Virus record (IMG/VR): IMGVR_UViG_2541047739_000006
Origin: a virus
Taxonomy: Duplodnaviria > Heunggongvirae > Uroviricota > Caudoviricetes
Strand: one strand, 5' to 3'
Length of the DNA: 34,603 nt
The notes under the pieces: generated by a model
Databases searched by the model: none
Seen by the model: only the letters and a program-made list of their open reading frames with translations
What the model was told of the DNA's origin: nothing
Made by a program: the position numbers and the translations under genes
In this document: positions 1,579 to 21,983 of the stretch, piece by piece
Numbering within the stretch: the first letter of the stretch is position 1
Layout of the letters: every line of letters starts with the position of its first letter

Positions 1579-1609
1579 TTGCTGTTCGGTTTAGTGGAGG
1601 TACCCCCAA

Positions 1610-4110: not shown

Positions 4111-4122
4111 CGGAGACTGAAA

Positions 4123-7156: not shown

Positions 7157-7416
7157 ATATCAACTTAATTTATCGTCATCCGTGTGAGCTGGAAATTGAA
7201 TCATTGCTGGGGCGTGAAGAGCCATATCCAGACTCATTCACTCCCGCAGATTGCGCGACTGAACGGCTTACCAGAGCGCGCACAGGTCTGGTTCATGTGA
7301 TGAATGAGATTGTTCCCTCGGTGGGAGGGGAACAGGCGACAGTAATCAATAGCTGGCTACAAAAAGTTACCTCCCTGATAGATATCGGTTTAATCGATGT
7401 GGAGAGTGCGAAATGA
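7153..7416 (+). CDS. hypothetical protein
   Basis: 87-aa ORF; start overlaps the preceding stop (ATGA). Confidence 0.55.
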   Translation: MNINLIYRHPCELEIESLLGREEPYPDSFTPADCATERLTRARTGLVHVMNEIVPSVGGEQATVINSWLQKVTSLIDIGLIDVESAK

Positions 7417-7634
7417 CCAACATCCAGCTCATTGAAGCGCAATGTCGCATCGAACAGGTTCAGACTGTTTTAGGGTTCTGGCTTGAAGGGGCCAGCCCCA
7501 GCAACAGAGACAAGTTAATGATTGGCGCGGTTATGTCACTGCTCAATGGCGTACCAGAAGCTATTCAGGAAGCGGACGAATTGTTGGGCAAATATGAGTT
7601 ACAGAATCATTCAGGCGAGGCGAAACATGAATAA
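7413..7634 (+). CDS. hypothetical protein
   Basis: 73-aa ORF; ATGA overlap with the upstream gene. Confidence 0.55.
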   Translation: MTNIQLIEAQCRIEQVQTVLGFWLEGASPSNRDKLMIGAVMSLLNGVPEAIQEADELLGKYELQNHSGEAKHE

Positions 7635-8229
7635 TTTCTTAACTTTCCATGCAGAAGCAACGCCTGACGGCGTAAACATCATGTACCGCAGCAACGATGG
7701 CATGACAGAACGCGTTGAGGCCGTCTCATATATTGATGCCGTAAATCGTCTGGATGCCGGGGATTATGACGATAAACCAGATGAAGGTATGTCAATACAT
7801 CTCGCTATTGCCGATGGCGGCAACCAGGGATATTTCGATTACACATCACAGCATAACGTCATTATGTGGAGATGGCTGATCGCAACAGTATTCATGCTGG
7901 AAATGAGAGAGGAAAACGGCACTGTCAGCATCATTGATGATACTGGCAATCCTTCCGAAGTGGCTGTTTATTCCAACGGCATCGTCGCCATGCCGCTGTA
8001 TCCAGTAGCAGAGCGCCTCGCTATGGCAAACAACATTGAGGGCGCGATGATAGAACGTTTTGGCATCGAGTCTGGCACAGAACGCGCCATCATTTTCTAC
8101 AGAGCCATGATGGATGTGGAACAAGGAGCACTGACTCCATTTGGTCGTGAAACGCTTGCTGAACTTCACAACAGCTTTATAGCTGAACTGAATGAAAACG
8201 GCATGCCAGCGGAACCAGTGACGCACTGA
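7627..8229 (+). CDS. hypothetical protein (200 aa)
   Basis: ATG 7627 overlaps the upstream stop; the listed 7522 start looks like an over-extension. Confidence 0.6.
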   Translation: MNNFLTFHAEATPDGVNIMYRSNDGMTERVEAVSYIDAVNRLDAGDYDDKPDEGMSIHLAIADGGNQGYFDYTSQHNVIMWRWLIATVFMLEMREENGTVSIIDDTGNPSEVAVYSNGIVAMPLYPVAERLAMANNIEGAMIERFGIESGTERAIIFYRAMMDVEQGALTPFGRETLAELHNSFIAELNENGMPAEPVTH

Positions 8230-8239
8230 GGATGGAGCC

Positions 8240-8581
8240 ATGATTACTAAAAATTTCCGACTGAATGCGCTGGCAAATAAGTATGCGTCGGCACTGTATA
8301 ACCACATTACCTCCACCAGCGGCGGGGACTATTTCATGGTTGATGCGGACGGCGAGGCCGTACGTGTGGAAATCGTCAATGGAGTAAAAGGCGTTCGCAG
8401 CCTGATCGATAGCTACACACTGGCAGCCATGAAAGTGTTCTACCCGCAGTGGGAAACCGTGGGGATCGAGCTTCTTGAGCGTTGCGTCACTAAGGACGGA
8501 TTGACTGACGTCGGGCGTGAGATATGGCAAAGCATGGTTAATGACATGGGCGCAACTGTAGCGGGAGGTTCTCATGCGTGA
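8240..8581 (+). CDS. hypothetical protein
   Basis: 113-aa ORF; GGAG before the ATG; same operon. Confidence 0.6.
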   Translation: MITKNFRLNALANKYASALYNHITSTSGGDYFMVDADGEAVRVEIVNGVKGVRSLIDSYTLAAMKVFYPQWETVGIELLERCVTKDGLTDVGREIWQSMVNDMGATVAGGSHA

Positions 8582-8945
8582 AAATGCAGAAATGGCGCTT
8601 AGCTCCGCAATCGGAGAGCAGGTGGCAAAGATTGCTGGTGCTGTGTGGATTCATAACCTTCATTCTACTGGTGAAGAGAAAATGGCAATTCAGACGCCAG
8701 AGGGACGCACCATTACTACATCTCTGAAGCCGTCAGATGTTTGTGATCTGATTTGCGCATTCATGTACCCAGCAATGAGGACTGTCCACGGCGATAAGTG
8801 GAAACTTGCGACAACCGCTGAATTTGATATGTGGCTAAACAATGATGGCATGCTGACTGATTACGGAATAACCAAGTGGCAGATGCTGGTTAGCCATATC
8901 GCAAACGCTATAGACCACGTGGGGTACGGTGATGCGAAACATTGA
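8574..8945 (+). CDS. hypothetical protein
   Basis: 123-aa ORF overlapping both neighbours by a few bases. Confidence 0.6.
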   Translation: MRENAEMALSSAIGEQVAKIAGAVWIHNLHSTGEEKMAIQTPEGRTITTSLKPSDVCDLICAFMYPAMRTVHGDKWKLATTAEFDMWLNNDGMLTDYGITKWQMLVSHIANAIDHVGYGDAKH

Positions 8946-11688
8946 TCTTATCCGTCAGGTTATCAGTGCGTCTGAAAACAACTGGCCTCATGTGCTGGGC
9001 TGCCTGAACATAAATGTCCCTGACTCTCCGCGCCGTCATGCTCCCTGCCCTGCATGTGGGGGCAAAGATCGATTCCGGTTCGATGACAACGGGCGCGGTA
9101 GCTTCATCTGTAATCAGTGCGGCGCTGGTGATGGGCTGGATTTAATTAAACGCGTAAATAACTGCGACACAACAGAGGCGGCGCTTCTTGCCGCTGATGT
9201 TCTGGGTATTGATTACCGGACAACGGAAACACCAGAAGCCACCAGCCAGAAACGGGAACAACTGGAAACCGAGCGCCAGCGACGCGAACAGGAGCGCCTG
9301 AAAAGGGCAGAGAAGGACGAACAACAAAGACGGGATACGTTTTCCCGTCAGTTTGATGACATGCGCAGAAAGGCTGTAAACGGCAAATCTGATTATCTGG
9401 TTGCGAAAGGGGTAGGTGATTTTACATTCCCCGTGTTGCCCGATGGATCTCTGTTGCTGGCGCTGGTGGATAAATCCGGCGCAGTCACAGCAGCACAGAC
9501 TATTACATCACATGGTGAAAAAAGACTCCTGACAGGTTCAGCAAAGCGGGGGGCATATCACGCCATAAACGCGCCAGAAACAACACAGAGCATCTTAATC
9601 GCAGAAGGGCTGGCAACGGCATTATCTGCCCATTTAATTCGTCCAGAGGCGCTGACAGTGGCGGCGATTGATGCCGGGAACCTGTTATATGTCGCCCAGG
9701 TACTGCGGGATAAATTTCCTTCAGCACAAATCATCATTGCTGCGGATAACGACCACAGCGAAGGAAGACAAAACACGGGGAGAATAGCAGCAGAAAAAGC
9801 AGCTTTATCTGTTTCTGGATGGGTGGCATTACCCCCGACAGATCACAAAGCAGACTGGAATGATTACCACCAAAAACACGGCATTAAATGCGCCACAGAA
9901 GCGTTCAATAAGTCAATGTACCAACCACAGGGTAATGGCGTGAAACATGAGCCACAGACCATTGAGGGAAGCGATTTTAAGGTTATGGATACCGACCCAC
10001 TGAAACCAAGAATAGAAAGCCGCGAGGATGGTATTTATTGGGTATCTCCGAGAGCTGACAGCCAGAGTGGAGAAATCATCAATAACGAAAGCTGGTTATG
10101 TTCTCCGTTAAGCGTTATCGGTACTGGCAGAGACGATAAAGACCAGTATCTCATTCTTCGCTGGCTGTCGTTTGGTTCTGAAACGCCGACAACCGCTGCC
10201 ATTCCACTGGCTGATATTGGTGAACGTGAAGGATGGCGCACACTTAAAGCTGGTGGGGTAAATGTCACGACCAAAAGCAGCCTCAGAGCAATACTGGCAG
10301 ACTGGCTACAACGCAGTGGCTCTCGTGAATTGTGGCGTGTTGCTCATGCCACTGGCTGGCAATGCGGAGCGTACATCATGCCTGATGGGGAAATCATCGG
10401 AACACCTGAAAATCCTGTGCTGTTCAGCGGGAGAAGCTCAGCCGCAGCCGGATATACCGTCTCAGGGAGCGCGAAAAGCTGGCGTGATAACGTGGCGCGT
10501 CTGGCCTTTGGTAACTATTCAATGATGACCGGGATCGGCGCAGCACTGGCAGCGCCATTGATTGGGCTGGTGGGCGCTGACGGGTTCGGCATTCATTTCT
10601 ATGAGCAGTCGAGCGCAGGTAAGACCACCACGGCAAACGTGGCGAGCAGCTTATACGGCAACCCTGATTTACTGCGGCTGACGTGGTACGGAACCGCGCT
10701 GGGGCTGGCAAATGAGGCCGCCGCCCACAATGACGGACTAATGCCGCTTGATGAAGTTGGTCAGGGCGCTGATCCTGTCAGCGTTTCACAGTCTGCCTAT
10801 GCGTTATTTAACGGTGTAGGGAAACTGCAAGGCGCTAAAGATGGTGGAAACCGGGATCTAAAACGCTGGCGTACAGTGGCAATCAGCACCGGAGAAATGG
10901 ATTTAGAAACATTTATCGCTACTTCCGGGCGAAAAACCAAAGCCGGGCAACTGGTGCGACTGCTGAATATTCCGTTGAGTAAAGCAGTACGCTTTCACGA
11001 TTACCAGAACGGAAAACAGCACGCAGACGCACTGAAAGACGCTTACCAGCATCACCACGGCGCGTCCGGGCGTGAGTGGATTAAATGGCTGGCAGACCAC
11101 CAGCAACAGGCTATTAAAACCGTTCGTGACTGCGAAAGCAGATGGAGAAGCCTGATCCCATCCGATTATGGTGAGCAGGTTCACCGTGTAGCCGCGCGAT
11201 TTGCCATTCTGGAGGCCGCATTGTTGTTAGGCGAGGTTGTAACAGGCTGGGATGCTCAGACATGCCGTGATGCGATACAGCACAGCTATAACGCATGGTT
11301 GCGCGAGTTCGGCACAGGTAACAAAGAGCATCAGCAGATTATTGAACAAACGGAGGCATTTCTTAATGCCTATGGGCTTAGCCGTTTTGCACCATTTCCA
11401 TACAGCCCGGCAGATTTGCCCATCAAAGATTTAGCCGGATACCGTCAGCGTGGAGAACATGACGAAAGCCCAATGATTTTCTACACATTCCCGGCCACAT
11501 TTGAAAAGGAGATCGCATGTGGTTTCAACGCAAAACAGTTTGCTGAAGTGTTGAAAAAAGCCGGGATGCTAACCCCACCAAACAGCGGTCGTGGATACCA
11601 AAGAAAATCACCACGTATTCAGGGACGACAAATAAACGTTTATGTACTCAATTACCAGCCAGGAGATTATAACTCATCTGAAGAATGA
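8929..11688 (+). CDS. P4 alpha-like primase-helicase (Zn-ribbon + TOPRIM primase + P-loop NTPase)
   Basis: 919-aa ORF; CPACGG...CNQCG zinc ribbon; TOPRIM-like ILIAEGLATALSA ... AADNDHSEG; Walker A SSAGKTT and Walker B LMPLDEVG; immediately followed by iterons. Confidence 0.88.
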   Translation: MMRNIDLIRQVISASENNWPHVLGCLNINVPDSPRRHAPCPACGGKDRFRFDDNGRGSFICNQCGAGDGLDLIKRVNNCDTTEAALLAADVLGIDYRTTETPEATSQKREQLETERQRREQERLKRAEKDEQQRRDTFSRQFDDMRRKAVNGKSDYLVAKGVGDFTFPVLPDGSLLLALVDKSGAVTAAQTITSHGEKRLLTGSAKRGAYHAINAPETTQSILIAEGLATALSAHLIRPEALTVAAIDAGNLLYVAQVLRDKFPSAQIIIAADNDHSEGRQNTGRIAAEKAALSVSGWVALPPTDHKADWNDYHQKHGIKCATEAFNKSMYQPQGNGVKHEPQTIEGSDFKVMDTDPLKPRIESREDGIYWVSPRADSQSGEIINNESWLCSPLSVIGTGRDDKDQYLILRWLSFGSETPTTAAIPLADIGEREGWRTLKAGGVNVTTKSSLRAILADWLQRSGSRELWRVAHATGWQCGAYIMPDGEIIGTPENPVLFSGRSSAAAGYTVSGSAKSWRDNVARLAFGNYSMMTGIGAALAAPLIGLVGADGFGIHFYEQSSAGKTTTANVASSLYGNPDLLRLTWYGTALGLANEAAAHNDGLMPLDEVGQGADPVSVSQSAYALFNGVGKLQGAKDGGNRDLKRWRTVAISTGEMDLETFIATSGRKTKAGQLVRLLNIPLSKAVRFHDYQNGKQHADALKDAYQHHHGASGREWIKWLADHQQQAIKTVRDCESRWRSLIPSDYGEQVHRVAARFAILEAALLLGEVVTGWDAQTCRDAIQHSYNAWLREFGTGNKEHQQIIEQTEAFLNAYGLSRFAPFPYSPADLPIKDLAGYRQRGEHDESPMIFYTFPATFEKEIACGFNAKQFAEVLKKAGMLTPPNSGRGYQRKSPRIQGRQINVYVLNYQPGDYNSSEE

Positions 11689-11706
11689 GCTTCTTCATGT
11701 GCGTAG

Positions 11707-11828
11707 AAAAGGTGTTGGTTCAGTTGGTTCAGTTGGTTCAATTTGTAAAGAGTATTGTTTTATAAGGATTTTATTCTTTTTATTGAACCAACACTGAACC
11801 AACAACACGGTATTTTGAACCAACACAA
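11707..11828. repeat. ori-like iteron module: 3 direct GTTGGTTCA, AT-rich spacer, 3 inverted TGAACCAAC
   Basis: Read directly: AAAAGGTGTTGGTTCAGTTGGTTCAGTTGGTTCAATTTGTAAAGA ... TTGAACCAACACTGAACCAACAACAC ... TTGAACCAACAC, directly 3' of the primase gene; same architecture as the P4 ori with type I iterons. Confidence 0.6.
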
Positions 11829-12143
11829 TGTGACTGAATTGATGCGCACAACACCTGGCTGGCATCAGAGAGTGTTTTACGAGACTTTCGTAAAATCCTG
11901 TGTACAAGGGCGTGACGTTTTTGAAAGTGAGCACTACGAAATTTTCGTAGTTCAGAAAACAGCCTCTGAGAAGTTGTTATGCCTGTTCAGCAAACCATCC
12001 GCATAGCTGATCGCGAATCAAATTACCAATGGAGCCAGAAGCAAGGGCAGAACTGAAAAGCGCCTGCCGTGAAGAGTAATGCGACACCATAAATATAGTT
12101 TTTAGAGTCCATAAAAAACCTGTCAAAACCTGACACACAGAAC

Positions 12144-12178
12144 GATGCCACCAGCTACTGAGCGGTGGCATTTTTTTG
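12144..12178 (+). terminator. intrinsic terminator
   Basis: GATGCCACC-AGCTACTGAGC-GGTGGCATC stem-loop followed by TTTTTTT. Confidence 0.6.
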
Positions 12179-12272
12179 TGCTATTTGTTTCATATTTTGC
12201 AATTACGATGATGAATATTGCGATTTGTGAAACTATAATAACTGTTGTTTTATACAGTTCTAAGGGGGCGTT

Positions 12273-12434
12273 ATGGCTATTTCAGTAAAGCCGGTATTGA
12301 TAAGTGAGAAGCAAATGGAAGCGATAAAGAAAATTCAGGAAGAGCAGCGTAAAAAATCAGGAATTGGAGTAGCGCCAACTCTGCATGAAATTGCACGAGG
12401 GTTAATAGATAAGGCGCTGGCAGGCTGTATGTGA
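12273..12434 (+). CDS. small ribbon-helix-helix-like protein (53 aa)
   Basis: AGGGGG Shine-Dalgarno 6 nt before ATG; beta-strand/helix/G-turn/helix pattern (VKPVLISEKQMEAIKKI...G...TLHEIARGLIDKAL); below the ORF-track length cutoff. Confidence 0.45.
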   Translation: MAISVKPVLISEKQMEAIKKIQEEQRKKSGIGVAPTLHEIARGLIDKALAGCM

Positions 12435-12450
12435 AAATGGATGGCATCGC

Positions 12451-12912
12451 ATGGAACTAAAATTTATTGATAACCCTGTGCGATTACAGGCCTTTCTTAA
12501 CGAGCCAGGCAATACCGAAAATATTGTTGAGCCGGGGCACACGTACTACATCAAGCCTGATGCGGTATATCTCGGCATCTACGAAGGATTAGTGCTGGCT
12601 GGCGTTCATGAAGTGCGTAACTTCTGGCATAGCGTTGTTGAATGCCATGCGGTGTACGACCCCGGATTCCGTGGTGAATATGCACTGCAAGGACATCGAT
12701 TATTCTGCAAATGGCTTCTCGAAAACTCACCATTCCTTAACAGCATTACCATGGTTCCTGACACCACGAAATACGGACGGGCAATTATCCGTTTGCTTGG
12801 CGCTACCCGTGTTGGTCATCTTGATGATGCTTATATCAGATGTGGTAAACCCGTCGGCGTAACGCTTTATCAGTTAACTCGGCAACAATATAAGGAATTC
12901 AGCGAATGTTAA
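12451..12912 (+). CDS. hypothetical protein (possible P22 gp14-like; low confidence)
   Basis: 153-aa ORF, first of a same-strand run of four genes whose sizes (153/225/249+/701 aa) parallel P22 genes 14-7-20-16 as I recall them; similarity not verified. Confidence 0.65.
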   Translation: MELKFIDNPVRLQAFLNEPGNTENIVEPGHTYYIKPDAVYLGIYEGLVLAGVHEVRNFWHSVVECHAVYDPGFRGEYALQGHRLFCKWLLENSPFLNSITMVPDTTKYGRAIIRLLGATRVGHLDDAYIRCGKPVGVTLYQLTRQQYKEFSEC

Positions 12913-13583
12913 TTACCCATATAGCTTATAAACATCTCAATCGTGCCGTATACGAAAAAGGCGGTGATGGTGGTGCCTCTAAAGCTCAGGCGAAGGCCCA
13001 GCAGCAGGCAATTGATTTGCAGCGCGAGCAGTGGAATACGGTGATGAATAATCTCAAGCCGTATGCAGAAGTCGGATTGCCTGCTTTACAACAACTACAA
13101 GGACTGATGACTCTGGAAGGGCAGAATAAAGCCGCGAATGATTTCTTTGGTTCTGGTTTATATAAAACACAGGCAGATCAGGCCCGTTATCAGAACCTTG
13201 TCTCAGCAGAAGCTACCGGGGGGCTTGGCTCAACAGCTACCAGTAACCAGTTATCTTCCATTGCGCCCATGCTTTATAACAATTGGCTCAGTGGGCAAAT
13301 GCAAAATTATGGAAACCTGCTAAATGTCGGGATGAATGCGGCATCAGGGCAGGCAACAGCAGGGCAAAACTACGCCAATAATACCGGACAACTCTTGCAG
13401 GGGCTTGGCGCTATTCGTGCAGGTCAGGCGCAGCAGCCATCCAGTCTTGCGCGTGGTATTGGTGGGGCGGCATCAGGCGCTTTAGCGGGTGCGCAACTTG
13501 GTTCCGTTGTTCCGGGTATAGGTAATGTCGCCGGGGCTATTGGTGGTGGGCTTATTGGTCTTGTTGGGGGGCTTGGATTCTAA
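12906..13583 (+). CDS. Q/G-rich hypothetical protein with glycine-zipper C-terminus (possible phage ejection/internal protein)
   Basis: 225-aa ORF overlapping the upstream stop; C-terminus GGAASGALAGAQLGSVVPGIGNVAGAIGGGLIGLVGGLGF. Confidence 0.65.
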   Translation: MLITHIAYKHLNRAVYEKGGDGGASKAQAKAQQQAIDLQREQWNTVMNNLKPYAEVGLPALQQLQGLMTLEGQNKAANDFFGSGLYKTQADQARYQNLVSAEATGGLGSTATSNQLSSIAPMLYNNWLSGQMQNYGNLLNVGMNAASGQATAGQNYANNTGQLLQGLGAIRAGQAQQPSSLARGIGGAASGALAGAQLGSVVPGIGNVAGAIGGGLIGLVGGLGF

Positions 13584-14327
13584 TGGCGACATGGCAACTT
13601 GGCGGGCTGCCTAGCATGGCACCGCAAAATGATAATGCTCCTCGTTCTTCCGTTCCTCAGCCTGTGCAGTATCAGCAGCAGCCAAACGTAGGTTTAATGG
13701 CGCTACAGGGGCTAAGAGGCGTTGCTGAGATTAATCAGCAGGCACGTCAACAACAGCGTAAAGCAGAGTTTCAGAAAGCATATGCCGGGGCTTTTGAGTC
13801 TGGAGACAGAAACAAAATGCGCAGTCTTATTTCTGAGTATCCAGAAGAATTTGAAAGCGTTCAGAAAGGGATGGGCTTTATTGATGACGACCAGAGAAAT
13901 TCTATTGGTCATCTTGCGACTAGTGCTCAAATCGCATCTTCGCTCGGAACTGGGGCATTTGGAAAATTCATAGCAGATAACGAAGATGAAATGCGTCGTT
14001 TGGGAATTTCTCCTGAGTCTGTTGCCGAAATGCATGTTAATGATCCACAGGGATTCCAGCGGCTTGCTGGTAGTATGGCACTGTTTTCTCTCGGTCATGA
14101 GAAGTACTTCGATATCAAAGATCGAATGGAAGGTCGGGATATTGAGCGTGGCAAGTTGGCAGAGACGATCCGCAGCAATCAAGCCGGAGAAGCACTTCAG
14201 GCGAGAGGGCAGGATATTAGCCGAGCAAATGCGTTAACGTCAGCATATGCACCAACAGCCGCAATGCAGAATTACAATCAATACGCGCAAATGTTAAAGG
14301 CGGATCCAGAGGGGGCTGCGGCATTTG
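13583..14327 (+). pseudogene. hypothetical phage-like protein, 3'-truncated by IS1
   Basis: ORF starts at the upstream stop (ATGG overlap) and runs into the IS1 end at 14328; the apparent stop lies inside IS1. Confidence 0.6.
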
Positions 14328-14342
14328 GGTAATGACTCCAAC

Positions 14343-14846
14343 TTATTGATAGTGTTTTATGTTCAGATAATGCCCGATGACTTTGTCATGCAGCTCCACC
14401 GATTTTGAGAACGACAGCGACTTCCGTCCCAGCCGTGCCAGGTGCTGCCTCAGATTCAGGTTATGCCGCTCAATTCGCTGCGTATATCGCTTGCTGATTA
14501 CGTGCAGCTTTCCCTTCAGGCGGGATTCATACAGCGGCCAGCCATCCGTCATCCATATCACCACGTCAAAGGGTGACAGCAGGCTCATAAGACGCCCCAG
14601 CGTCGCCATAGTGCGTTCACCGAATACGTGCGCAACAACCGTCTTCCGGAGCCTGTCATACGCGTAAAACAGCCAGCGCTGGCGCGATTTAGCCCCGACA
14701 TAGCCCCACTGTTCGTCCATTTCCGCGCAGACGATGACGTCACTGCCCGGCTGTATGCGCGAGGTTACCGACTGCGGCCTGAGTTTTTTAAGTGACGTAA
14801 AATCGTGTTGAGGCCAACGCCCATAATGCGGGCTGTTGCCCGGCAT
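14343..14846 (-). CDS. insB: IS1 InsB
   Basis: Identical 167-aa InsB as at 5821..6324. Confidence 0.95.
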
Positions 14847-15040
14847 CCAACGCCATTCATGGCCATATCAATGATTTTCTGGTGCGTACCGGGTTGAGAA
14901 GCGGTGTAAGTGAACTGCAGTTGCCATGTTTTACGGCAGTGAGAGCAGAGATAGCGCTGATGTCCGGCGGTGCTTTTGCCGTTACGCACCACCCCGTCAG
15001 TAGCTGAACAGGAGGGACAGCTGATAGAAACAGAAGCCAC
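14765..15040 (-). CDS. insA: IS1 InsA
   Basis: Identical 91-aa InsA as at 5627..5902. Confidence 0.95.
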
Positions 15041-15104
15041 TGGAGCACCTCAAAAACACCATCATACACTAAATCAGTAAGTTGGCAGCATCACCGGGTG
15101 ATTA

Positions 15105-17210
15105 ATGGCTAAAGCATGGAAAGATGTTATCGCCTCTCCACAGTATCAGGCGTTAGCACCAGAACAAAAAGCGCAGGCTCAGGAGCAATACTTCAATGAA
15201 GTCGTGGCCCCGCAAGCCGGAGAAAGTGTAGCGCAGGCTAAGCAGGCTTTTTATGCTGCCTATCCACTACCATCAACGAATGAAATAGACCGATCCCAAT
15301 CAGCAACTCAAAATATTCAACATACATCATCTGATAATTCTCTTGCGTCAGGGTATGCAAAGTTAGCTACTCAGCAAAGAGAGGGGCTTGAGCGTTCAGC
15401 AGAACAGGGAGCCAGTCTTGGGGCTGCGATGCGCGATGCTATAACAGGCGAAAGCCGAATGACTCCAGAGATGGAGAGACTGCAAAATGTCGACCTTGCC
15501 CCAGAGTTAACCTCACTCAGCATGGGTGCTCTAAAAGCTCGATGGTCTCAACTTTTCGGCTCTGACGCATCTCAGGAAAAGATTCTTCAGAGCATGGGAG
15601 CGAAATTAAGGCAGGATGAGAAGGGTAACACTATCGTTTCCCTGCCATCCGGTGATTATGCTCTGAACAAGCCGGGTTTATCGCCGCAAGACGTGGCATC
15701 GTTTCTGGCTAATGCGCTGGCGTTTACACCAGCGGGCAGGGCTGGAACGGTGCTTGGTGCCATAGGAAAATCAGCAGCTACAGATTTAGCACTACAGGGA
15801 GCCACCAGCCTTGCTGGTGGAGAAGATATTGATCCGTTACAAACGGTAATTTCTGCTGGCATTGGTGGTATTGGTAAGGGGCTGGAAAATACAGCGAGTG
15901 CGGTTTCGAGGGCTGTTCGTGGTGATATGTCGCCTGAAGCAAAGGCTGCTGTCAACTTTGCATCGGAAAGAAATCTGCCGTTAATGACCAGTGACATGCT
16001 GAAAGATAAAACCTTTATGCAGAGTCAGGCTCAGACATTAGGCGAAAGAGTTCCTTTTTTTGGAACCGGTAAGAATCGGCTGAATCAACAACAAGCACGA
16101 GAAAATTTAGTCAGAACATTTAGCGATGGTCTGGGTGGCATTTCTGATAAACAGCTTTATGAATCTGCGACTAAAGGGCAACAAAAATTCATTGAGGCAG
16201 CAGGAAAGCGATATAACCGCATAATTGACGCTATGGGGGATACCCCTGTCGATCTCTCAAACACGGTAAAAGCTATCGACAATCAGATTGCCGTGTTAAG
16301 CCGCCCGGGCAAATCTCAGGATAGAGCCGCGGTAAAAGTCTTGCAGCAATTTAAAGACGATATCACCAGCGGACCAAATGACCTGCGTCTGGCGAGGGAA
16401 AACAGAACCGATCTTCGAAAGCGATTTATGGCGTCATCTGACACTGTTGATAAAGATACGCTCCAGAAAGCCAGCGATATTATCTACAAGGCATATACGG
16501 CGGATATGAAAAAAGCCGTAGCCAAAAATCTTGGAGCAGACGAAGCCATTAATATGGCAAGGGTTGATCGGTCATGGTCTAAATTCAATGACATGATGGG
16601 AAGAACGCGCGTTCAAAAGGCAATAGCCAGCGGTAAGGCCACGCCTGAGGATGTAACAAAACTCGTTTTTAGCCAAAGCCCATCAGAACGTTCTCAGCTT
16701 TACAGGCTTCTGGATGACAATGGTAGGCAAAACGCACGAGCAGCCATAGTTCAGAATGCTGTAGATAAGGCGACTGATCCGTCTGGAAATATCAGTGTTG
16801 AGAAGTTTATTAATGCGTTACACCGGAACAGGAAGCAATCAGCAACTTTCTTTAAAGGCGTACATGGAAAGGAACTGGACGGCGTTATTAAATACCTCAA
16901 CGATACAAGACACGCGGCAAAAGCGAACGTTCAAAACTTAAATGGTCAGCAGCTTTATGGATTGTTAGTTGGTGGTGGCATCATAAACGCAGCAGTATTA
17001 GCGGGGATGCTAAAAACGGCTGCGTTTGTTGTTCCTGCTGCTGGTGCCGTAGGCGGAGCAGCGAAGGCATACGAAAGCCCTGTTATACGAAATGCCTTGT
17101 TACGTCTGGCAAATACGCCAAAAGGTAGCACAGCATATGACAGAGCGATCAGTACGGTCACACAATCGCTCACCAGAGTCGCACAGGCATCACAAAAAGA
17201 AGCTCAATAA
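15105..17210 (+). CDS. large A/Q/G-rich hypothetical protein (possible phage ejection / DNA-transfer protein)
   Basis: 701-aa ORF starting 10 nt after the IS1 end (in-frame TGA 2 codons upstream); low-complexity coiled-coil-like N-terminus and hydrophobic glycine-rich C-terminal segment. Confidence 0.65.
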   Translation: MAKAWKDVIASPQYQALAPEQKAQAQEQYFNEVVAPQAGESVAQAKQAFYAAYPLPSTNEIDRSQSATQNIQHTSSDNSLASGYAKLATQQREGLERSAEQGASLGAAMRDAITGESRMTPEMERLQNVDLAPELTSLSMGALKARWSQLFGSDASQEKILQSMGAKLRQDEKGNTIVSLPSGDYALNKPGLSPQDVASFLANALAFTPAGRAGTVLGAIGKSAATDLALQGATSLAGGEDIDPLQTVISAGIGGIGKGLENTASAVSRAVRGDMSPEAKAAVNFASERNLPLMTSDMLKDKTFMQSQAQTLGERVPFFGTGKNRLNQQQARENLVRTFSDGLGGISDKQLYESATKGQQKFIEAAGKRYNRIIDAMGDTPVDLSNTVKAIDNQIAVLSRPGKSQDRAAVKVLQQFKDDITSGPNDLRLARENRTDLRKRFMASSDTVDKDTLQKASDIIYKAYTADMKKAVAKNLGADEAINMARVDRSWSKFNDMMGRTRVQKAIASGKATPEDVTKLVFSQSPSERSQLYRLLDDNGRQNARAAIVQNAVDKATDPSGNISVEKFINALHRNRKQSATFFKGVHGKELDGVIKYLNDTRHAAKANVQNLNGQQLYGLLVGGGIINAAVLAGMLKTAAFVVPAAGAVGGAAKAYESPVIRNALLRLANTPKGSTAYDRAISTVTQSLTRVAQASQKEAQ

Positions 17211-17229
17211 CTGGTTAGCCATGGATGGC

Positions 17230-17844
17230 TTAGATATCTCTGCTGTCTCCATTAGGAAATAAAAGATAATATGGATTTGCCTTTCTTGCTCTCCTTGCTT
17301 CACCCGGATACCTGTTAGTCAGTAGCTTGCATAATGAGCAGAGAACAACACTCAAGAAAATTCCGAATGAGAAGATCAATATCTCACCAAAAATCAATGG
17401 CGATATTAAATTTTCAGGATTTAATGATAAGTCAATGTTAAAAACATATTGAGCAATACCAGTAAGTATCAATAATATAATCCCTATGGAATACATTGCT
17501 GTTTCCCAAACATCAGACAGTCTATTTTTGAATTGTTCGCTGGAGTAGTAGTTTGTTATAAAGTCAGAAAAATCACTCTCATATGCATCATCTTTAGGTG
17601 ATGTTAGAAATCCTCTGTCTCTCCATACCTTCTCCCAATTAGTCGATTCTTTTTTTAAGGAAAAATAAATATGTATTCCCAAAAGGATAGCCAAAATTGG
17701 TGTTAGCTCTAAAAAATAGAATGTTATGGAATAAATAATACTGCCATGTTCAAACTCATCTGGGACTATCATGTATGCACAAAAATAAATTGAAAAGTAC
17801 ACCATGCAGATAGTTAGCAATTCTTTAGTATCTTTTCTGCTCAC
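17230..17844 (-). CDS. multi-pass membrane protein, AT-rich, unknown function
   Basis: 204-aa ORF with several hydrophobic segments (ICMVYFSIYFCAYMIV, LTPILAILLGIHIYF, IGIILLILTGIAQYVF, IFGEILIFSFGIFLSVVLC); composition sharply more AT-rich than its neighbours. Confidence 0.6.
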   Translation of the reverse strand: MSRKDTKELLTICMVYFSIYFCAYMIVPDEFEHGSIIYSITFYFLELTPILAILLGIHIYFSLKKESTNWEKVWRDRGFLTSPKDDAYESDFSDFITNYYSSEQFKNRLSDVWETAMYSIGIILLILTGIAQYVFNIDLSLNPENLISPLIFGEILIFSFGIFLSVVLCSLCKLLTNRYPGEARRARKANPYYLLFPNGDSRDI

Positions 17845-17957
17845 ACCAACCCCCTTTAGCGTTGTTTAGAATGGCAATCATCATATATCCAAGACATGGC
17901 ATTTGGTACATAGCTTGGGTCGGGATTTCAAGTCCGCTCCCAGTTGATGGGGCCGTT

Positions 17958-18342
17958 ACAGTACGCGCATATCCGCTTTATGTGAAACAGGAAGATTTTT
18001 CTGATATCACTGCCACAGCAAAACACCAATTTCGTGACCAGTACGCGCGCGAGGGGTATCAGTTGCAAAATTTTTTGCAACTGCGTCCGACCAGTACGCA
18101 CACGATGGCGGGGGATACCATAAAACTGTTCTCTACATGAGACAGAGTGGTGGTGATGTGTTGATTATCGGCGTATATGCGCACAGGACGCGCTATGACG
18201 ATGTTTTATGCGGGTACACCAATCACATGTATCTGGTGTGATAAATCGCGTTACATGACCTCTCATGTTGTGCTGGTGGTTATCACGACTTTCTGAATCT
18301 GGCCTTTGCCTGATATTTTGCGACAAGTACGCGCGCGTAGCA
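17958..18342. repeat. repeat family with alternating-CG palindromic core (CAGTACGCGC at 17958; GACCAGTACGCGCGCGA at 18036; GACCAGTACGCACACGA at 18089; GACAAGTACGCGCGCGTAGCA at 18322) plus an 11-bp inverted repeat CAGTTGCAAAA-tt-TTTTGCAACTG at 18060..18083
   Basis: Read directly; a fifth copy lies at 19712..19734. Confidence 0.6.
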
Positions 18343-18365
18343 TCGACAGCATACACATTGGATAT

Positions 18366-18587
18366 TCATTTTGTGACCAATGCGATAAGTAGCGGGATAA
18401 GAATTGATAAAATCAACAGGCCGATGATCCACTTTTGATTTTCACTGGCCTTATCTCTATTTTCATCAATCTTATCAATAATTCGACGCTCCAATCCGTG
18501 CATATCACCGCGAATGGCAATCATCTCATTGCGAACATCAGGGAAGTGGTTGGCTTGATGTTCAATGTGTGGCGTTCTGCCTTTCAT
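18366..18587 (-). CDS. small tail-anchored membrane protein (coiled-coil N-terminus + C-terminal TM)
   Basis: 73-aa ORF; charged N-terminal region then WIIGLLILSILIPLLIALV; resembles XhlA/holin-like small proteins, not verified. Confidence 0.5.
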   Translation of the reverse strand: MKGRTPHIEHQANHFPDVRNEMIAIRGDMHGLERRIIDKIDENRDKASENQKWIIGLLILSILIPLLIALVTK

Positions 18588-18666
18588 ATCTGATCCTCAC
18601 CTATCGTCACTACCTGCTGGTGTATAAAGGTATTGGCCCAAGCAACTTTCCAATGGGCACTCATGT

Positions 18667-19122
18667 TTATACGCTGACCTTACAATCAATCACTGCTTTT
18701 AGCTTTTCAGCATTGCTTCCCTGACGCTTCCACGCGCTGTAAATATCTTTATCCCACGCTTTACCAGCTTTTGTTTGATAGCCTGCTTCATTGATCCGTT
18801 CAGCTATCACACGCCCATTATCAAATCCCTGTTGGATGGTATCGGCAATGATCTTTATAACTGCCGTTTCGTTATATGGTTTTGGTGGGATGTTCGGCTT
18901 TCCGGCAATAAGCGACGCAGCGGCTTTTTCCATGCGCTCCACCAGCCCAAGCATTCGTGAATCAATAGACTTTTCCGGCTGCCCCAGCTTCATGCGAATC
19001 GCATCAACAAGCCAGGAGGTTTTATCTCCTCCAGAAGCGAGAACAGACCGATTAAACTCATCCTGCAATTCAGATGGGATGCGGAACGCGACCAGATTAG
19101 ATTTGCTCATTGCAAAGACCAT
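18667..19122 (-). CDS. ribbon-helix-helix (Arc/MetJ-type) domain protein with C-terminal extension
   Basis: 151-aa ORF; N-terminus NLVAFRIPSELQDEFNRSVLASGGDKTSWLVDAIRMKL fits the beta-strand/helix/G-turn/helix RHH pattern (compare P22 Arc/Mnt). Confidence 0.6.
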   Translation of the reverse strand: MVFAMSKSNLVAFRIPSELQDEFNRSVLASGGDKTSWLVDAIRMKLGQPEKSIDSRMLGLVERMEKAAASLIAGKPNIPPKPYNETAVIKIIADTIQQGFDNGRVIAERINEAGYQTKAGKAWDKDIYSAWKRQGSNAEKLKAVIDCKVSV

Positions 19123-19220
19123 ATCAGTGAGTAATATCCATACAGTATACCACTGTATAACACTGTTATACGCTCAAATATCAGCCAGAAAATAACGGAC
19201 CAATCACAAATCTATCGCTG

Positions 19221-19352
19221 TGTTGTTGGTTCAGAGCTGGGCTGTGTTGGTTCAAAATGAGTTGATGTTGGTTCAATATTTCAGAAAAAACACAATAAAA
19301 ACAACAATCTTTACAAATTGAACCAACTGAACCAACTGAACCAACACCTTTT
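19221..19352. repeat. crr-like second iteron module; inverted copy of the ori module
   Basis: The reverse complement begins with the same 43 nt as the ori module (AAAAGGTGTTGGTTCAGTTGGTTCAGTTGGTTCAATTTGTAAAGA), followed by an AT-rich spacer and three TGAACCAAC copies. Confidence 0.55.
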
Positions 19353-19381
19353 TGCTTATCTATATAATCTGAGAGGCAGAA

Positions 19382-19663
19382 ATGATAAGGGACAGGAAAG
19401 CTGAAGAGCTGGAGTCAAAAGGGCTATACCGGAGAGCTGCCGCACGATGGATGGAAGTCATGCTGTTATGCACCGAGGACGATGATCGGGAATGGATAAA
19501 GCGCCGCCGTGAAACGTGTCTGGAGAACGTGAAGCGCCCGCCCGTGAAGGTTGAGGAATTTGGCGACCTGCATAAAGCTGTTACCGAAACGCAACACCGC
19601 ATGGGGATAGCGCAACCGAACGGTAACGCCTTCCGGTTAAATGGCGGCAAGAGGCAAAGGTAG
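19382..19663 (+). CDS. PerC-family transcriptional activator homolog
   Basis: 93-aa ORF; N-terminus MIRDRKAEELESKGLYRRAAARWMEVML matches the PerC/Pch family signature as I recall it. Confidence 0.6.
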   Translation: MIRDRKAEELESKGLYRRAAARWMEVMLLCTEDDDREWIKRRRETCLENVKRPPVKVEEFGDLHKAVTETQHRMGIAQPNGNAFRLNGGKRQR

Positions 19664-19960
19664 ACCACCAGAGGGAAATCATCCTCTGGCTGGCGGTTTC
19701 TGGTATTTCGGGACAAGTACGCGCGCGCGTAGCACCCAATCGGTGAGGAAATAGCGGCGACCTGAATGGTCAAAATCACAACGCAGCTATCCCCGTAAGC
19801 AGCGCTTAACGGAATAGCAGTAACCTGAATCCAGTGGGGAGGGGGTAGTCAAATCTCTACAGCCCTGACTATCCGGGACTGCCCGCCCCATCGTTTTTTT
19901 ATACCCGCGAAAAATGAAATTTAATCCGGGCGTGTTTCATTCTTCCAGAGGGTATGACGT

Positions 19961-20146
19961 ATGACACCACGCGAAATAGCCTTATTGACCATCGCCAAAC
20001 TTGAGCACGGAGGCCACCAGCTTACACAGGCAGATCAACGGGAGATAGAACGATCAGTTAATGCCGATATAGCCCGGCGCGACAGGTTCCGCGAAATGAT
20101 GCGAGCACCTGCCTACCAGTGGAAGAAGCCAGCGCCGCGCAGGTAG
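19961..20146 (+). CDS. hypothetical small protein
   Basis: 61-aa ORF with a GAGGG Shine-Dalgarno-like sequence upstream; no recognisable domain. Confidence 0.35.
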   Translation: MTPREIALLTIAKLEHGGHQLTQADQREIERSVNADIARRDRFREMMRAPAYQWKKPAPRR

Positions 20147-20266
20147 ATATGGGATTATTCCACATGTAACTTATGCGTATTAAGCAAATTTCCTTTATTC
20201 ACCTTTACAGAATTGTGAGTACGTCAGTATCGTTATCCTTCCGATTCGCATTTATTCAGGATTTGC

Positions 20267-20809
20267 ATGTACCAGCTAAAGATAACCATCCGAGACAGCA
20301 AACCACCTATATGGCGGCGTGTGCTGGTTCCAGAGCAAATCCCCTTTAGTAAACTTCATGCCGTGATCCAGTTAGCTTTTGGCTGGAATGACGAACACCT
20401 GTATATGTTCGAGAAAGGGCGTAAAGGTGATCCAGGTAGCGAGTATCGCGTATGGGGTGAGGATGAAAGCATGGGTAACGCGGCAATCACGCCACTATGG
20501 GCGGCGCTCCAGAATGAGGGTGACAAGCTGGTTTACACGTATGACTTTGGCGACTGGTGGGATTGCGTCATTGTGCTGGAGAAGCAAACACACGATACGA
20601 GTAATCAGCCCATTAGCTGCCTGCGTGGGAAAGGCACCACCCCGGCGGAAAACTCAGGCGGCTTGCATGGTTACAATGAATTGCTATTACAGGCCAGAGA
20701 GTCTGATAATCCTGAGCAGGCCGAGATCCACAATTTCCTGATGCTGGATATTGAACGCCGGGTTTACGACCTGAGCCGCATCAACGACAGATTGCAGGCT
20801 ATTAACTGA
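20267..20809 (+). CDS. plasmid pRiA4b ORF-3-like family protein
   Basis: 180-aa ORF; N-terminus LKITIRDSKPPIWRRVLVP...LHAVIQLAFGWNDEHLYMF is the hallmark of the pRiA4b ORF-3-like (PF07929) family. Confidence 0.75.
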   Translation: MYQLKITIRDSKPPIWRRVLVPEQIPFSKLHAVIQLAFGWNDEHLYMFEKGRKGDPGSEYRVWGEDESMGNAAITPLWAALQNEGDKLVYTYDFGDWWDCVIVLEKQTHDTSNQPISCLRGKGTTPAENSGGLHGYNELLLQARESDNPEQAEIHNFLMLDIERRVYDLSRINDRLQAIN

Positions 20810-21161
20810 CCCGCATGTATTCACCTGATATTGCGTTGTCAGCGCCGCCAGTATCGCGCATAACAGCGCACTGACCGGGTAAACCGTAGCGCACGACCGT
20901 TGCGTTAGTATCACCGCCGCGCCGTATCTGGCGCGATTCATACACTGTCACCCGCTCAAGCAGTCCACCAGCAACCATGCTTTCCAGTGTGCGCCGGGTT
21001 GATTCGAGCTGGTGACGCTTATCGAACGACACCATGCCATGAAGCAGGTAGGCCACACCCGACACATCGAACGGCGGCGCACCAATCTCACCAGTCACCC
21101 ATTCGAGGTTATCCGGTTCAAAGTAGCTAAGTATCTCTTTTTTGCGGCTGGTCATTCTCAT
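20802..21161 (-). CDS. hypothetical protein
   Basis: 119-aa ORF convergent with and overlapping the previous gene by 8 nt; AAGGA upstream. Confidence 0.5.
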   Translation of the reverse strand: MRMTSRKKEILSYFEPDNLEWVTGEIGAPPFDVSGVAYLLHGMVSFDKRHQLESTRRTLESMVAGGLLERVTVYESRQIRRGGDTNATVVRYGLPGQCAVMRDTGGADNAISGEYMRVS

Positions 21162-21279
21162 GGCTGGCTGATTCCTTATTGTGGGATAGCACTATCATAC
21201 AATAAGTGGGTTAAAGGGAGAGCGTTACCGCCTGATATGCTGTATGAATAACAACCAAATTTCAGGGGCGGAAAAAGAT

Positions 21280-21378
21280 ATGGGGGTACTTTTGGGGGTA
21301 TCTATAAAAAATGAACAATAAAAAAGGCAACAAAAACAAAGCTTATCGCCTATGTGTATTGTTCCTATTATCGCACAA
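21280..21378 (+). other. putative attR of the P4-like element (arm-type repeat ATGGGGGTACTTTTGGGGGTAT plus degenerate core TCCTATTATCG-CACAA)
   Basis: 21/22 match to the arm repeat at 1557; TCCTATTATCG at 21363..21373 matches the thrW 3' end at 1428..1438, then diverges. Confidence 0.4.
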
Positions 21379-21983
21379 TCAAGAAAATCAATAACTTAGC
21401 TTAACTTCTCTAAGAAATTGTATCTTCTGTTATCACTTACAAACGCCTATACGTTGTTATGGGCTTTGGTAGTGTAACACGTATGGGCGAGTAGTTCCCA
21501 GGCTCAACCTCGTAACAAGTTCCTTTGAAGCTGGAAGACGTGCCACCGTCTCTAAACCTTCTACCAAAACTCTTAGCAAGATGTTCCACACCTGGCGCGG
21601 TGTCCAATGATGCTACACGTCGTGAGACGTTGCAGAGGATAAACAGGCTAAATGATGGGAAGAGTTTTAAGTGCAATAGTGGATCAAAGCCCACCTCTTC
21701 AAAACCTAACTTGATCGGGAAAGAATCAAGCTCTAGCACGGTTTCGTCCACCGGAGTACAACGGGTGCCTGATAAGAGAAGAACTGCTAAGACTTCATAG
21801 CTTTTGTGAAAAAGCCCTTTTAGTGGATACGCCTACGGCGCTTATTTTTTGGGGTAGCCCATCAAAGGCGCTTTATGGCTCCTATTGTCTTGAAAATGTA
21901 TCTTTACTTGTATTGTGTTTTATGCGTAGTCTCCCTGTGTAGTATGTAACTTGTTAATTTTCATATGAATACAGAGGCACACG

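What the first reader, a model, noticed from the sequence alone, without database searches (positions are those of the whole stretch)
17230..17844. AT-rich multi-pass membrane protein in the cargo: candidate superinfection-exclusion or abortive-infection effector
This 204-aa protein with at least four hydrophobic helices has composition far more AT-rich than the flanking genes, implying separate acquisition. It is a lone, divergently oriented gene directly after the putative ejection-protein genes, where P22 carries sieA, and is followed by an RHH-repressor-like gene. Accessory lone membrane proteins in prophages are frequently exclusion or Abi factors.
Basis: inference. Interest (0 to 1): 0.55.

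Follow-up and report, generated by a model that had tools for sequence, protein, structure and literature searches.

The report
Divergent SieA phage-exclusion gene in island
This AT-rich four-helix membrane protein is a divergent, so far unannotated relative of phage P22's SieA, an inner-membrane protein that stops related phages from injecting their DNA; here it sits in a non-phage chromosomal island rather than a prophage.

Summary
The ORF at 17230..17844 (minus strand, 204 aa, GTG start) is real. It has four hydrophobic helices and 33% GC against 47-48% in its neighbours. It is a homologue of the P22 superinfection-exclusion protein SieA. A profile-profile comparison with validated type A/B SieAs gives 99.4% probability (E 3e-21) over 185 columns. 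The RYPGEA and YSSE..NRxSD motifs are conserved. It lies 19 nt after, and convergent with, a gp16 ejection-protein gene, exactly as in P22, and P22's ribosome-binding site and GTG start are conserved at the DNA level. AT-richness is a family trait (P22 sieA 33.7% GC), not a sign of separate acquisition. The protein belongs to a distinct clade (100% bootstrap) only 16-19% identical to types A and B, mostly missed by Pfam's SIEA model and annotated "hypothetical" in 103 E. coli genomes. Relatives in Citrobacter, Serratia and Proteus occupy the sieA slot of complete P22-like prophages. All six E. coli copies examined sit in a thrW island with an integrase, Ash, a primase and a gp14-7-20-16 module, but no head or tail genes. 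The most likely function is blocking DNA injection by P22-like phages; an Abi role is not supported. This is a new member of a known kind.

The parts
17230..17844 (-). sieA-like gene. It encodes a 204-aa protein with four TM helices, predicted to sit in the inner membrane with both termini in the cytoplasm. The conserved motifs are Y100-S-S-E..N107-R108-x-S-D111 and N177-R-Y-P-G-E-A183.
   Evidence: ORF. Hydropathy and positive-inside rule. AF2 model. BLASTP against P22 SieA E 8e-8 and against HS1 SieA E 2e-9. hhalign 99.4% probability, E 3e-21. PHROG 7745 'SieA-like' E 4.4e-4.
17845..17860 (-). Translation-initiation region. The sequence CTAAAGGGGGTTGGT precedes the GTG and is nearly identical to the P22 sieA region (CTAAGGAGGTTGGT then GTG).
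   Evidence: Sequence read-outs and DNA alignment.
15105..17210 (+). gp16-family ejection (DNA transfer) protein, 701 aa, convergent with the sieA-like gene. Its first ~60 residues are the N-terminal module of L/Sf6-type gp16.
   Evidence: PHROG 770/29117. 30% identical to P22 and HS1 gp16, and 76% to the Citrobacter prophage gp16. The N-terminal module occurs in 55 phage records.
12451..14332 (+). gp14 (12451-12912), gp7 (12906-13583) and the N-terminal half of gp20 (13583-14332). The gp20 gene is cut by IS1.
   Evidence: PHROG 651, 598 and 917. BLASTP to the P22 and HS1 homologues. The uninterrupted arrangement is seen in strains 00_3230 and 789.
14330..15095 (-). IS1 copy that replaces the C-terminal half of gp20. 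The boundaries are approximate.
   Evidence: InsA and InsB ORFs. RefSeq annotation as IS1A. Matches in genomes that lack this IS1 begin at window position 15096.
18366..18587 (-). 73-aa protein with a C-terminal TM helix, at the position of P22 orf59a but with no detectable homology to it.
   Evidence: ORF. PHROG 6324, unknown function. No BLASTP hit to orf59a.
18667..19122 (-). 151-aa protein with an RHH-like N-terminus, at the position of P22 mnt.
   Evidence: Residues 13-49 align weakly with the Mnt RHH domain, E 0.002-0.01. No Pfam hit. Relatives of the target have a true Mnt/Arc gene at this position.
1369..21385 (.). The thrW island that carries the gene. In order it holds tRNA-Thr (1369-1444), an integrase (1610-2824), AntA/B, Ash (interrupted by IS1), a C4 antisense RNA, a TOPRIM/DUF927 primase (8929-11688), the ejection-protein module, sieA-like, PerC (19382-19663), pRiA4b-ORF3, and a degenerate attR at about 21370-21385.
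   Evidence: tRNA. Annotated relatives. Pfam and PHROG hits. Rfam. Repeats and sequence.

Best explanation
The gene encodes a SieA-family superinfection-exclusion protein. It is made from the resident island and inserts into the inner membrane with four helices and both termini in the cytoplasm. Its conserved core is the TM3-TM4 hairpin together with the two cytoplasm-facing juxtamembrane motifs, YSSE..NRxSD before TM3 and NRYPGEA after TM4. When a P22-like podovirus adsorbs and releases its ejection proteins gp7, gp20 and gp16, the protein prevents the gp20/gp16 conduit from forming or opening at the inner membrane. The phage DNA therefore never reaches the cytoplasm and the cell survives. 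Shown here: homology to SieA, conserved motifs, predicted topology, conserved position next to gene 16, conserved RBS and start codon, and the family-wide AT-rich composition. Inferred from the validated P22 and HS1 proteins: membrane location, the injection block, and specificity for P22-like phages.
For: The layout matches P22 exactly, 14-7-20-16 followed by sieA(-), with a 19-nt gap against 22 nt in P22. BLASTP gives E 8e-8 against P22 SieA and E 2e-9 against HS1 SieA, which is experimentally active (PMC10883804). hhalign of the target clade against type A/B SieAs gives 99.4% probability, E 3e-21, over 185 of 204 columns. The target-clade profile hits the Pfam-SIEA-positive proteins P0019 and P0036 at library-wide E 2.4e-5 and 4.5e-4. 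PHROG 7745 'SieA-like' scores E 4.4e-4. The residues invariant across 37 family members are S101, N107, R108, R178, P180, E182 and A183, and they fall in the model's most confident regions. The four-TM, N-in/C-in topology matches the published topology of types B and C. Clade members in Citrobacter, Serratia and Proteus sit between gp16 and Mnt/tailspike in complete P22-like prophages. GC content and the RBS/GTG start match P22 sieA. The adjacent cargo slot holds Abi or Panacea toxin-antitoxin genes in sister islands, which marks it as a defence hotspot. Aeromonas proteins fuse a periplasmic gp16 N-terminal module to a SieA module, which links SieA to gp16.
Against: There are no functional data for this lineage. 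It is only 16-19% identical overall to the two tested SieAs. It deviates from the published FxRYPxEAxxFNK motif, reading TNRYPGEARRARK. The precomputed Pfam tables show no SIEA hit for the target, and a profile built from P22 plus HS1 does not retrieve it at database-wide significance. No sigma-70 consensus promoter was found directly upstream, and an AT-rich gene may be silenced by H-NS. The island is damaged in this window (IS1 in gp20 and in ash), so the gene could be an unexpressed passenger. The copies are about 99% identical, so purifying selection cannot be demonstrated.
Confidence: 0.75

Rival explanations
1. The gene is a silent passenger. A segment of a P22-like phage (genes 14 to sieA) was captured by the thrW island, and the sieA-like gene is intact only because the capture or spread was recent. 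It is not expressed or gives no protection.
For: In this window the island is decaying: IS1 truncates gp20 and a second IS1 splits ash. A near-identical genome carries an IS1-associated deletion. The copies are 99% identical or more, so intactness does not prove selection. No consensus promoter was found.
Against: The gp14-7-20-16 plus sieA module is intact, with full-length ORFs, in unrelated strains from several hosts and countries. 102 of 103 copies are full length. The RBS is strong and conserved with P22. P22 sieA itself works from a weak promoter at low transcript levels (PMC10883804).
Confidence: 0.12
2. The gene is half of a matched pair belonging to a satellite. The island would be a satellite of P22-like phages that supplies its own ejection proteins. 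Its SieA would then block helper or competitor conduits while sparing conduits built from the island's own gp20 and gp16.
For: Every E. coli copy examined lies in an island with an integrase, Ash and a primase, intact gp14-7-20-16 genes and no head or tail genes. The gp16 next to the gene carries a swapped N-terminal module.
Against: Nothing shows mobilisation or packaging. The published SieAs exclude phages with very different ejection proteins, which argues against fine cognate specificity. The gp16 and gp20 escape positions gave no signal of self-resistance. Some sister islands have the ejection-protein module without this gene.
Confidence: 0.08
3. The protein is an abortive-infection or toxic membrane effector, holin-like or pore-forming, that depolarises the cell on infection.
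For: It is a small multi-pass membrane protein in a defence-rich cargo region, next to an Abi gene in some strains. Overproduced P22 SieA slows growth (supplement of PMC10883804).
Against: PADLOC gives no hit. The protein is homologous to SieA, which blocks DNA entry and barely affects growth at single copy. There is no sensor or partner gene conserved with it across genera.
Confidence: 0.04

Closest known systems
P22 SieA (type A; Pfam PF26849 SIEA, PHROG 7745)
   Same: Same position and orientation after gene 16. Same AT-rich composition, and the same RBS and GTG start. The conserved C-terminal two-TM hairpin is flanked by the YS.E..NR.SD and RYPGEA motifs. hhalign shows homology.
   Different: Only about 16% identical overall, or 29% over the C-terminal 108 aa. 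The target is 204 aa with four TM helices; P22 SieA is 164 aa with three. The target reads T..ARK where P22 has F..FNK around the motif. The target is not recognised by Pfam SIEA in the precomputed tables. It is carried by an island, not a phage.
HS1 prophage SieA of E. coli HS (type B; shown to exclude P22-like phages)
   Same: Four TM helices with a cytoplasmic N-terminus. Found in E. coli at the thrW locus and convergent with gene 16. 34% identical over the C-terminal 118 aa, including NRYPGEAR.
   Different: 16-19% identical overall. It falls in a separate clade (type B 95% bootstrap, target clade 100%). HS1 is a complete P22-like prophage with a tailspike.
Morganellaceae SieA-like proteins (Providencia, Morganella, Proteus), probably the 'type C' of Leavitt et al. 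2024
   Same: They belong to the same 100%-supported clade as the target. Length (195-201 aa), four-TM layout and the NRYPGEARRAR(K/I) C-terminal motif all match. They occupy the sieA slot of P22-like prophages.
   Different: Only 30-31% identical to the target, on a separate sub-branch (90% bootstrap, against 84% for the Enterobacterales sub-branch). The paper states that E. coli has only types A and B and that type C is restricted to those three genera. I could not obtain the paper's type C reference sequences, so the equivalence is unverified.
Other injection-blocking membrane Sie proteins (HK97 gp15, Tuc2009 Sie2009, TP-J34 Ltp, T4 Imm)
   Same: The strategy is the same: a prophage-encoded membrane protein that blocks DNA entry (PMC10883804 discussion; T4 Imm from my own knowledge).
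   Different: No sequence relationship was detected. They act on other phage types, namely long-tailed phages and T-even phages.

Membership tests
SieA superinfection-exclusion family (P22 SieA) | Statistically supported sequence homology to experimentally validated SieA proteins | tested here: met
   hhalign of the clade against type A/B proteins gives 99.4% probability, E 3e-21, over 185 columns. BLASTP gives E 8e-8 against P22 SieA and E 2e-9 against HS1 SieA, and 26% identity over the full length to P0019, E 5e-14. PHROG 7745 scores E 4.4e-4.
SieA superinfection-exclusion family (P22 SieA) | Recognition by the Pfam SIEA model (PF26849) | tested here: inconclusive
   The precomputed tables show no PF26849 hit for the target or for most of its clade (2 of 18 have one), whereas every type A/B protein has it. 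The model is missing from the local Pfam copy, since P22 SieA itself gets no hit there, so I could not score the target. This is an operational detection limit, not a biological criterion.
SieA superinfection-exclusion family (P22 SieA) | Conserved cytoplasmic C-terminal motif FxRYPxEAxxFNK | tested here: met
   The core R178-Y-P-G-E-A183 and K188 are present and invariant or nearly invariant across 37 sequences. The flanking positions differ: T176 replaces F, and A186-R187 replace F-N.
SieA superinfection-exclusion family (P22 SieA) | Multi-pass inner-membrane protein (three TM in type A, four in types B and C) with a cytoplasmic C-terminus | tested here: met
   Four hydrophobic helices; K/R counts are 3, 0, 8, 0 and 6 in the successive loops, which gives N-in/C-in. 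The AF2 helices agree. This is a prediction only, and the actual location was not tested.
SieA superinfection-exclusion family (P22 SieA) | Gene lies immediately downstream of, and convergent with, the gene 16 homologue | tested here: met
   There is a 19-nt gap after gp16, against 22 nt in P22. The same arrangement holds in Citrobacter, Serratia and Proteus.
SieA superinfection-exclusion family (P22 SieA) | Resides in a P22-like prophage between genes 16 and 9, as in all cases examined by Leavitt et al. | tested here: not met
   The window and five other E. coli genomes carry the gene in a thrW island with an integrase, Ash and a primase but no coat, portal, terminase or tailspike genes. The feature is met for clade relatives in other genera. 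This describes where the family usually occurs and does not define the protein.
SieA superinfection-exclusion family (P22 SieA) | Blocks DNA injection by P22-like phages, with escape mutations mapping to gp16 and gp20 | not testable with these tools
   This needs plating, K+ efflux and escape-mutant experiments.
SieA types A and B (Leavitt et al. 2024) | Clusters with P22 SieA (type A) or HS1 SieA (type B) | tested here: not met
   In the NJ tree the target clade has 100% support, type A 100% and type B 95%. The target is 16% identical to both P22 SieA and HS1 SieA.
SieA type C (Leavitt et al. 2024) | Clusters with the Morganella KT and Providencia alcalifaciens 205/92 reference proteins | tested here: inconclusive
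   The clade contains P. alcalifaciens, M. morganii, P. rettgeri and Proteus proteins at 30-31% identity to the target. The named reference sequences could not be retrieved. A second Morganella protein, P0019, which groups with the type A/B clade (A+B+P0019 89% bootstrap), is an alternative candidate for type C.
Known anti-phage defence or Abi systems (PADLOC) | Match to a defence-system protein model | tested here: not met
   No PADLOC family matched at E up to 10.
Housekeeping transporter or enzyme families | Sequence or fold similarity to a transporter or enzyme | tested here: not met

The most novel reading that the evidence does not exclude
The thrW island is a previously undescribed kind of phage satellite that parasitises P22-like podoviruses. 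It would carry its own ejection-protein set (gp14, gp7, gp20, gp16) together with a matched SieA lineage. The SieA would close the inner-membrane entry route to helper-type or competitor phages, while particles loaded with the island's own conduit proteins could still deliver DNA. That would be a 'conduit plus anti-conduit' cassette. The Aeromonas fusions of SieA to the gp16 N-terminus would then be single-polypeptide versions of the same logic, a membrane-tethered decoy of the conduit subunit.
Probability: 0.1. Interest if true: 0.8.

Novelty: new member of a known kind. Interest (0 to 1): 0.42.

Why it matters
SieA's mechanism is unresolved. Leavitt et al. could not explain how very different SieAs exclude phages with very different ejection proteins. 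This lineage roughly doubles the known sequence depth of the family and reduces the invariant core to about ten residues, all on the cytoplasmic face around one TM hairpin. Those residues are direct targets for mutagenesis. The result also gives a function to a gene annotated 'hypothetical' in about 2% of complete E. coli genomes. It shows that Pfam's SIEA model misses a whole branch of the family. It shows that sieA is not confined to P22-like prophages, since here it travels in a primase-bearing island alongside intact ejection-protein genes. Finally, the natural fusions of SieA to a gp16 N-terminus give independent genomic evidence that SieA acts on the gp16 part of the conduit.

Full report
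OBSERVATION. A strong Shine-Dalgarno sequence (AAGGGGG) lies 5 nt upstream. Hydropathy analysis finds four hydrophobic helices at about 9-27, 39-57, 115-137 and 150-172. Lys/Arg counts in the successive loops are 3, 0, 8, 0 and 6, which places both termini and the long central loop in the cytoplasm. An AlphaFold2 model built on a 37-sequence alignment (mean pLDDT 81, pTM 0.62) has matching helices at 3-30, 36-67, 105-141 and 149-176, plus short cytoplasmic helices. The gene is 33.2% GC, against 47.5% for the upstream gp16 gene and 46.7% for the RHH-like gene. It is convergent with gp16, separated by 19 nt, rather than 'divergent'.

WHAT IT IS. The surrounding genes are P22-type: gp14, gp7, gp20 (N-terminal half only) and gp16, by PHROG hits with E values from 1e-66 to 1e-180. 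The order 14-7-20-16 followed by a minus-strand membrane-protein gene is exactly the P22 order 14-7-20-16-sieA(-)-orf59a(-)-mnt(-). The protein is homologous to SieA:
- BLASTP against P22 SieA gives 29% identity over 108 aa, E 8e-8.
- BLASTP against the SieA of E. coli prophage HS1 gives 34% over 118 aa, E 2e-9. Both alignments include the RYPGEA motif.
- PHROG 7745 'SieA-like' scores E 4.4e-4.
- An exhaustive HMMER search with a target-clade profile against 1.84 billion representatives returned 42 proteins. All share YSSE..NRxSD and LTxRYPGEA..RK, and they include the Pfam-SIEA-positive proteins P0019 (E 2.4e-5) and P0036 (E 4.5e-4).
- A profile-profile comparison of the target clade with 23 type A/B SieAs gives 99.4% probability and E 3e-21 over 185 columns, nearly the full length.
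Two DNA-level features also match P22 sieA. The first is the GC contrast: P22 sieA is 33.7% GC against 49.9% for gene 16, and HS1 sieA is 36.3%. The second is the translation-initiation region, CTAAGGAGGTTGGT|GTG in P22 and CTAAAGGGGGTTGGT|GTG here. AT-richness is therefore a trait of the family, not evidence that this copy arrived separately from its neighbours.

PLACE IN THE FAMILY. Leavitt et al. 2024 (PMC10883804) showed several things. [quoted passage not shown] Escape mutations map to the C-terminal parts of gp16 and gp20. The HS1 protein (type B) has the same activity. There are three sequence types: A, B, and C, with C restricted to Providencia, Morganella and Proteus. E. coli was reported to have only types A and B. 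In a neighbour-joining tree, the target groups with proteins from Citrobacter freundii (49% identical), Serratia fonticola (38%) and a Morganellaceae branch (30-31%) of Providencia, Morganella and Proteus proteins. This clade has 100% bootstrap support. Its Enterobacterales sub-branch has 84% and its Morganellaceae sub-branch 90%, while type A has 100% and type B 95%. The target is only 16% identical overall to both P22 SieA and HS1 SieA. Every type A/B protein carries the precomputed Pfam SIEA domain (PF26849), but the target and most of its clade do not; only 2 of 18 do. A P22+HS1 profile also fails to retrieve the target at database-wide significance. The Morganellaceae branch is probably the paper's type C, because the genera match, but I could not obtain the reference sequences to confirm this. 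The E. coli protein is therefore either a deep sub-branch of type C or a fourth lineage. In RefSeq it is 'hypothetical protein' in all 103 of 5,426 complete E. coli genomes that carry it.

CONTEXT. In Citrobacter freundii, Serratia fonticola and Proteus mirabilis, the clade members sit in complete P22-like prophages: coat ... gp7, gp20, gp16, then the homologue convergent with gp16, then Mnt/Arc and the tailspike. That is the canonical sieA slot. In E. coli the setting is different. The window, and five other genomes I examined (AF3, SLK172, F8, 00_3230 and 789), carry the gene in an island at tRNA-Thr (thrW). In order the island holds an integrase, an HTH gene, an AntA/B antirepressor, DUF4222, Ash, a TOPRIM/DUF927 primase, (gp14, gp7), gp20, gp16, the sieA-like gene, variable cargo and PerC. 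It has no coat, portal, terminase or tailspike genes. In this window the island runs from the tRNA (1369-1444) to a degenerate attR at about 21370-21385. It is damaged by two IS1 copies, one replacing the C-terminal half of gp20 and one splitting ash. The slot next to the gene holds an Abi gene (SLK172, 00_3230), an HTH gene (789) or, further along, a Panacea toxin-antitoxin pair (F8). In EcPF14 the sieA-like gene is replaced by other genes. This is the behaviour of a defence-cargo hotspot.

HOW IT MOST LIKELY WORKS. By homology to the two tested SieAs, the protein should sit in the inner membrane and prevent the gp20/gp16 conduit of an infecting P22-like phage from forming or opening, so that DNA does not enter and the cell survives. 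Across 37 family members the invariant residues are S101, N107, R108, R178, P180, E182 and A183, with D111, Y179 and G181 nearly invariant. All of them lie on the predicted cytoplasmic face, immediately before TM3 and after TM4, in the most confident parts of the model (pLDDT about 90). The N-terminal TM region varies, with one helix in type A and two elsewhere. My inference is that the TM3-TM4 hairpin with its two juxtamembrane motifs is the functional core. Because the conserved surface faces the cytoplasm, it may engage a conserved feature of the conduit's cytoplasmic exit or a host factor, not the variable periplasmic parts of the ejection proteins. That would help explain the puzzle noted by Leavitt et al., that divergent SieAs exclude phages with divergent ejection proteins. 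This last step is inference only.

AN INDEPENDENT LINK TO gp16. Two hits from the exhaustive search are fusion proteins: P0036 (430 aa, Aeromonas salmonicida, Pfam SIEA-positive) and P0027 (277 aa). Each has a signal peptide, then a segment that is 61% (P0036, E 7e-19) or 49% (P0027, E 2e-14) identical to the first 54-63 residues of this window's gp16, then a three-TM SieA module. That N-terminal module is the normal N-terminus of L/Sf6-type gp16 in 55 phage records. It is absent from the gp16 proteins of P22, HS1 and the Citrobacter, Serratia and Proteus prophages. By topology, the gp16-like module of the fusions is periplasmic. P0036 lies in a small island with an integrase, AlpA and a YagK-like gene, not in a prophage. 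A membrane-tethered copy of a conduit subunit's N-terminus attached to SieA is what one would expect if SieA acts at the gp16 step. This is suggestive, not proof.

VERDICT. This is a SieA-family superinfection-exclusion gene from a divergent lineage that is unannotated and mostly missed by Pfam. It counts as a new member of a known kind. What is less ordinary is its carrier, a primase-bearing thrW island that keeps an intact P22-type ejection-protein module without any head or tail genes, and the natural fusions of SieA to a gp16 N-terminus. Confidence is about 0.95 that the protein is a SieA homologue and about 0.75 that it actively excludes P22-like phages in this setting.

Noticed in passing
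window 1369-21385; L005, L014, L015, L016: A family of E. coli thrW islands (integrase, HTH, AntA/B, DUF4222, Ash, TOPRIM/DUF927 primase) carries an intact P22-type ejection-protein module (gp14, gp7, gp20, gp16) but no coat, portal, terminase or tailspike genes. The gp14-gp20 segment matches 1,057 of 5,426 E. coli genomes, 185 of them at 80% coverage or more. This could be a satellite of P22-like phages that brings its own injection proteins. I found no description of it in two P4-like satellite papers.
   Followed up: partly
P0036 (L006 8001-9293; L007; L008) and P0027: These are natural fusion proteins: a signal peptide, then a copy of the N-terminal ~55 residues of L/Sf6-type gp16 (61% and 49% identical to window gp16 residues 1-54 and 2-62), then a three-TM SieA module. 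P0036 is from Aeromonas salmonicida and lies in a small island with an integrase, AlpA and a YagK-like gene. This is a Rosetta-stone-type link between SieA and gp16.
   Followed up: partly
window 15105-15290: The island's gp16 is 76% identical to the Citrobacter prophage gp16 from residue 69 onward, but its N-terminal ~60 residues have been swapped for the L/Sf6-type module. The Citrobacter protein keeps the P22-type N-terminus MKVTANGKTF.
   Followed up: yes
window ~5600-6340 and ~14330-15095: There are two IS1 copies. One splits the ash gene (the Ash C-terminal fragment is at 6427-6969). The other replaces the C-terminal half of gp20. A near-identical genome (AF3) lacks window ~3430-14340 next to the same IS1, and in SCU-172 the two flanks lie 22 kb apart in opposite orientation. 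These look like IS1-mediated deletion and inversion.
   Followed up: partly
window 6423-6510 (+): Rfam finds a C4 antisense RNA (RF01695, 79.9 bits) beside the AntA/B antirepressor and Ash genes. A sister island is annotated with an Icd-like gene at the same place. Together these resemble a P1/P7-type c4-icd-ant immunity module inside the island.
   Followed up: no
window 17845-19380; L002 7620-8597; L015 13485-14462; L005 22373-23265: The slot between the sieA-like gene and PerC varies between strains. It holds an Abi-family gene (SLK172, 00_3230) or a small HTH gene (789). F8 has a Panacea-domain pair further downstream, and EcPF14 has unrelated genes in place of sieA. It looks like a defence-cargo hotspot.
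   Followed up: partly
window 18024-18051, 18310-18337, 19700-19727: Three direct copies of a 28-nt element ending in GACAAGTACGCGCGCG (75-100% identical) bracket the 73-aa, RHH-like and PerC genes upstream of the sieA-like gene. Their function is unknown; they could be operators or recombination scars.
   Followed up: no
window 1557-1578 and 21280-21301: A 22-nt direct repeat, ATGGGGGTACTT(A/T)TGGGGGTAT, lies just inside each end of the island: before the integrase gene, and about 70 nt before the degenerate attR. These are probably arm-type integrase binding sites.
   Followed up: no
window ~21400-34603: A second element is integrated in tandem. It has an HTH gene (25112-25828), a major capsid protein (27941-28969), an IS2 insertion, a baseplate protein (32474-33187) and its own integrase (33269-34603, minus strand). 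It may be a capsid-forming satellite or a prophage remnant. The stretch 21.4-25.1 kb has almost no ORFs of 90 aa or more.
   Followed up: no
window 17230-17844 and its homologues P0001-P0003, P0103-P0114: There is an annotation gap. Pfam SIEA (PF26849) is recorded for every type A/B SieA retrieved but for only 2 of 18 members of this clade. RefSeq calls the protein 'hypothetical' in all 103 E. coli genomes that carry it.
   Followed up: yes
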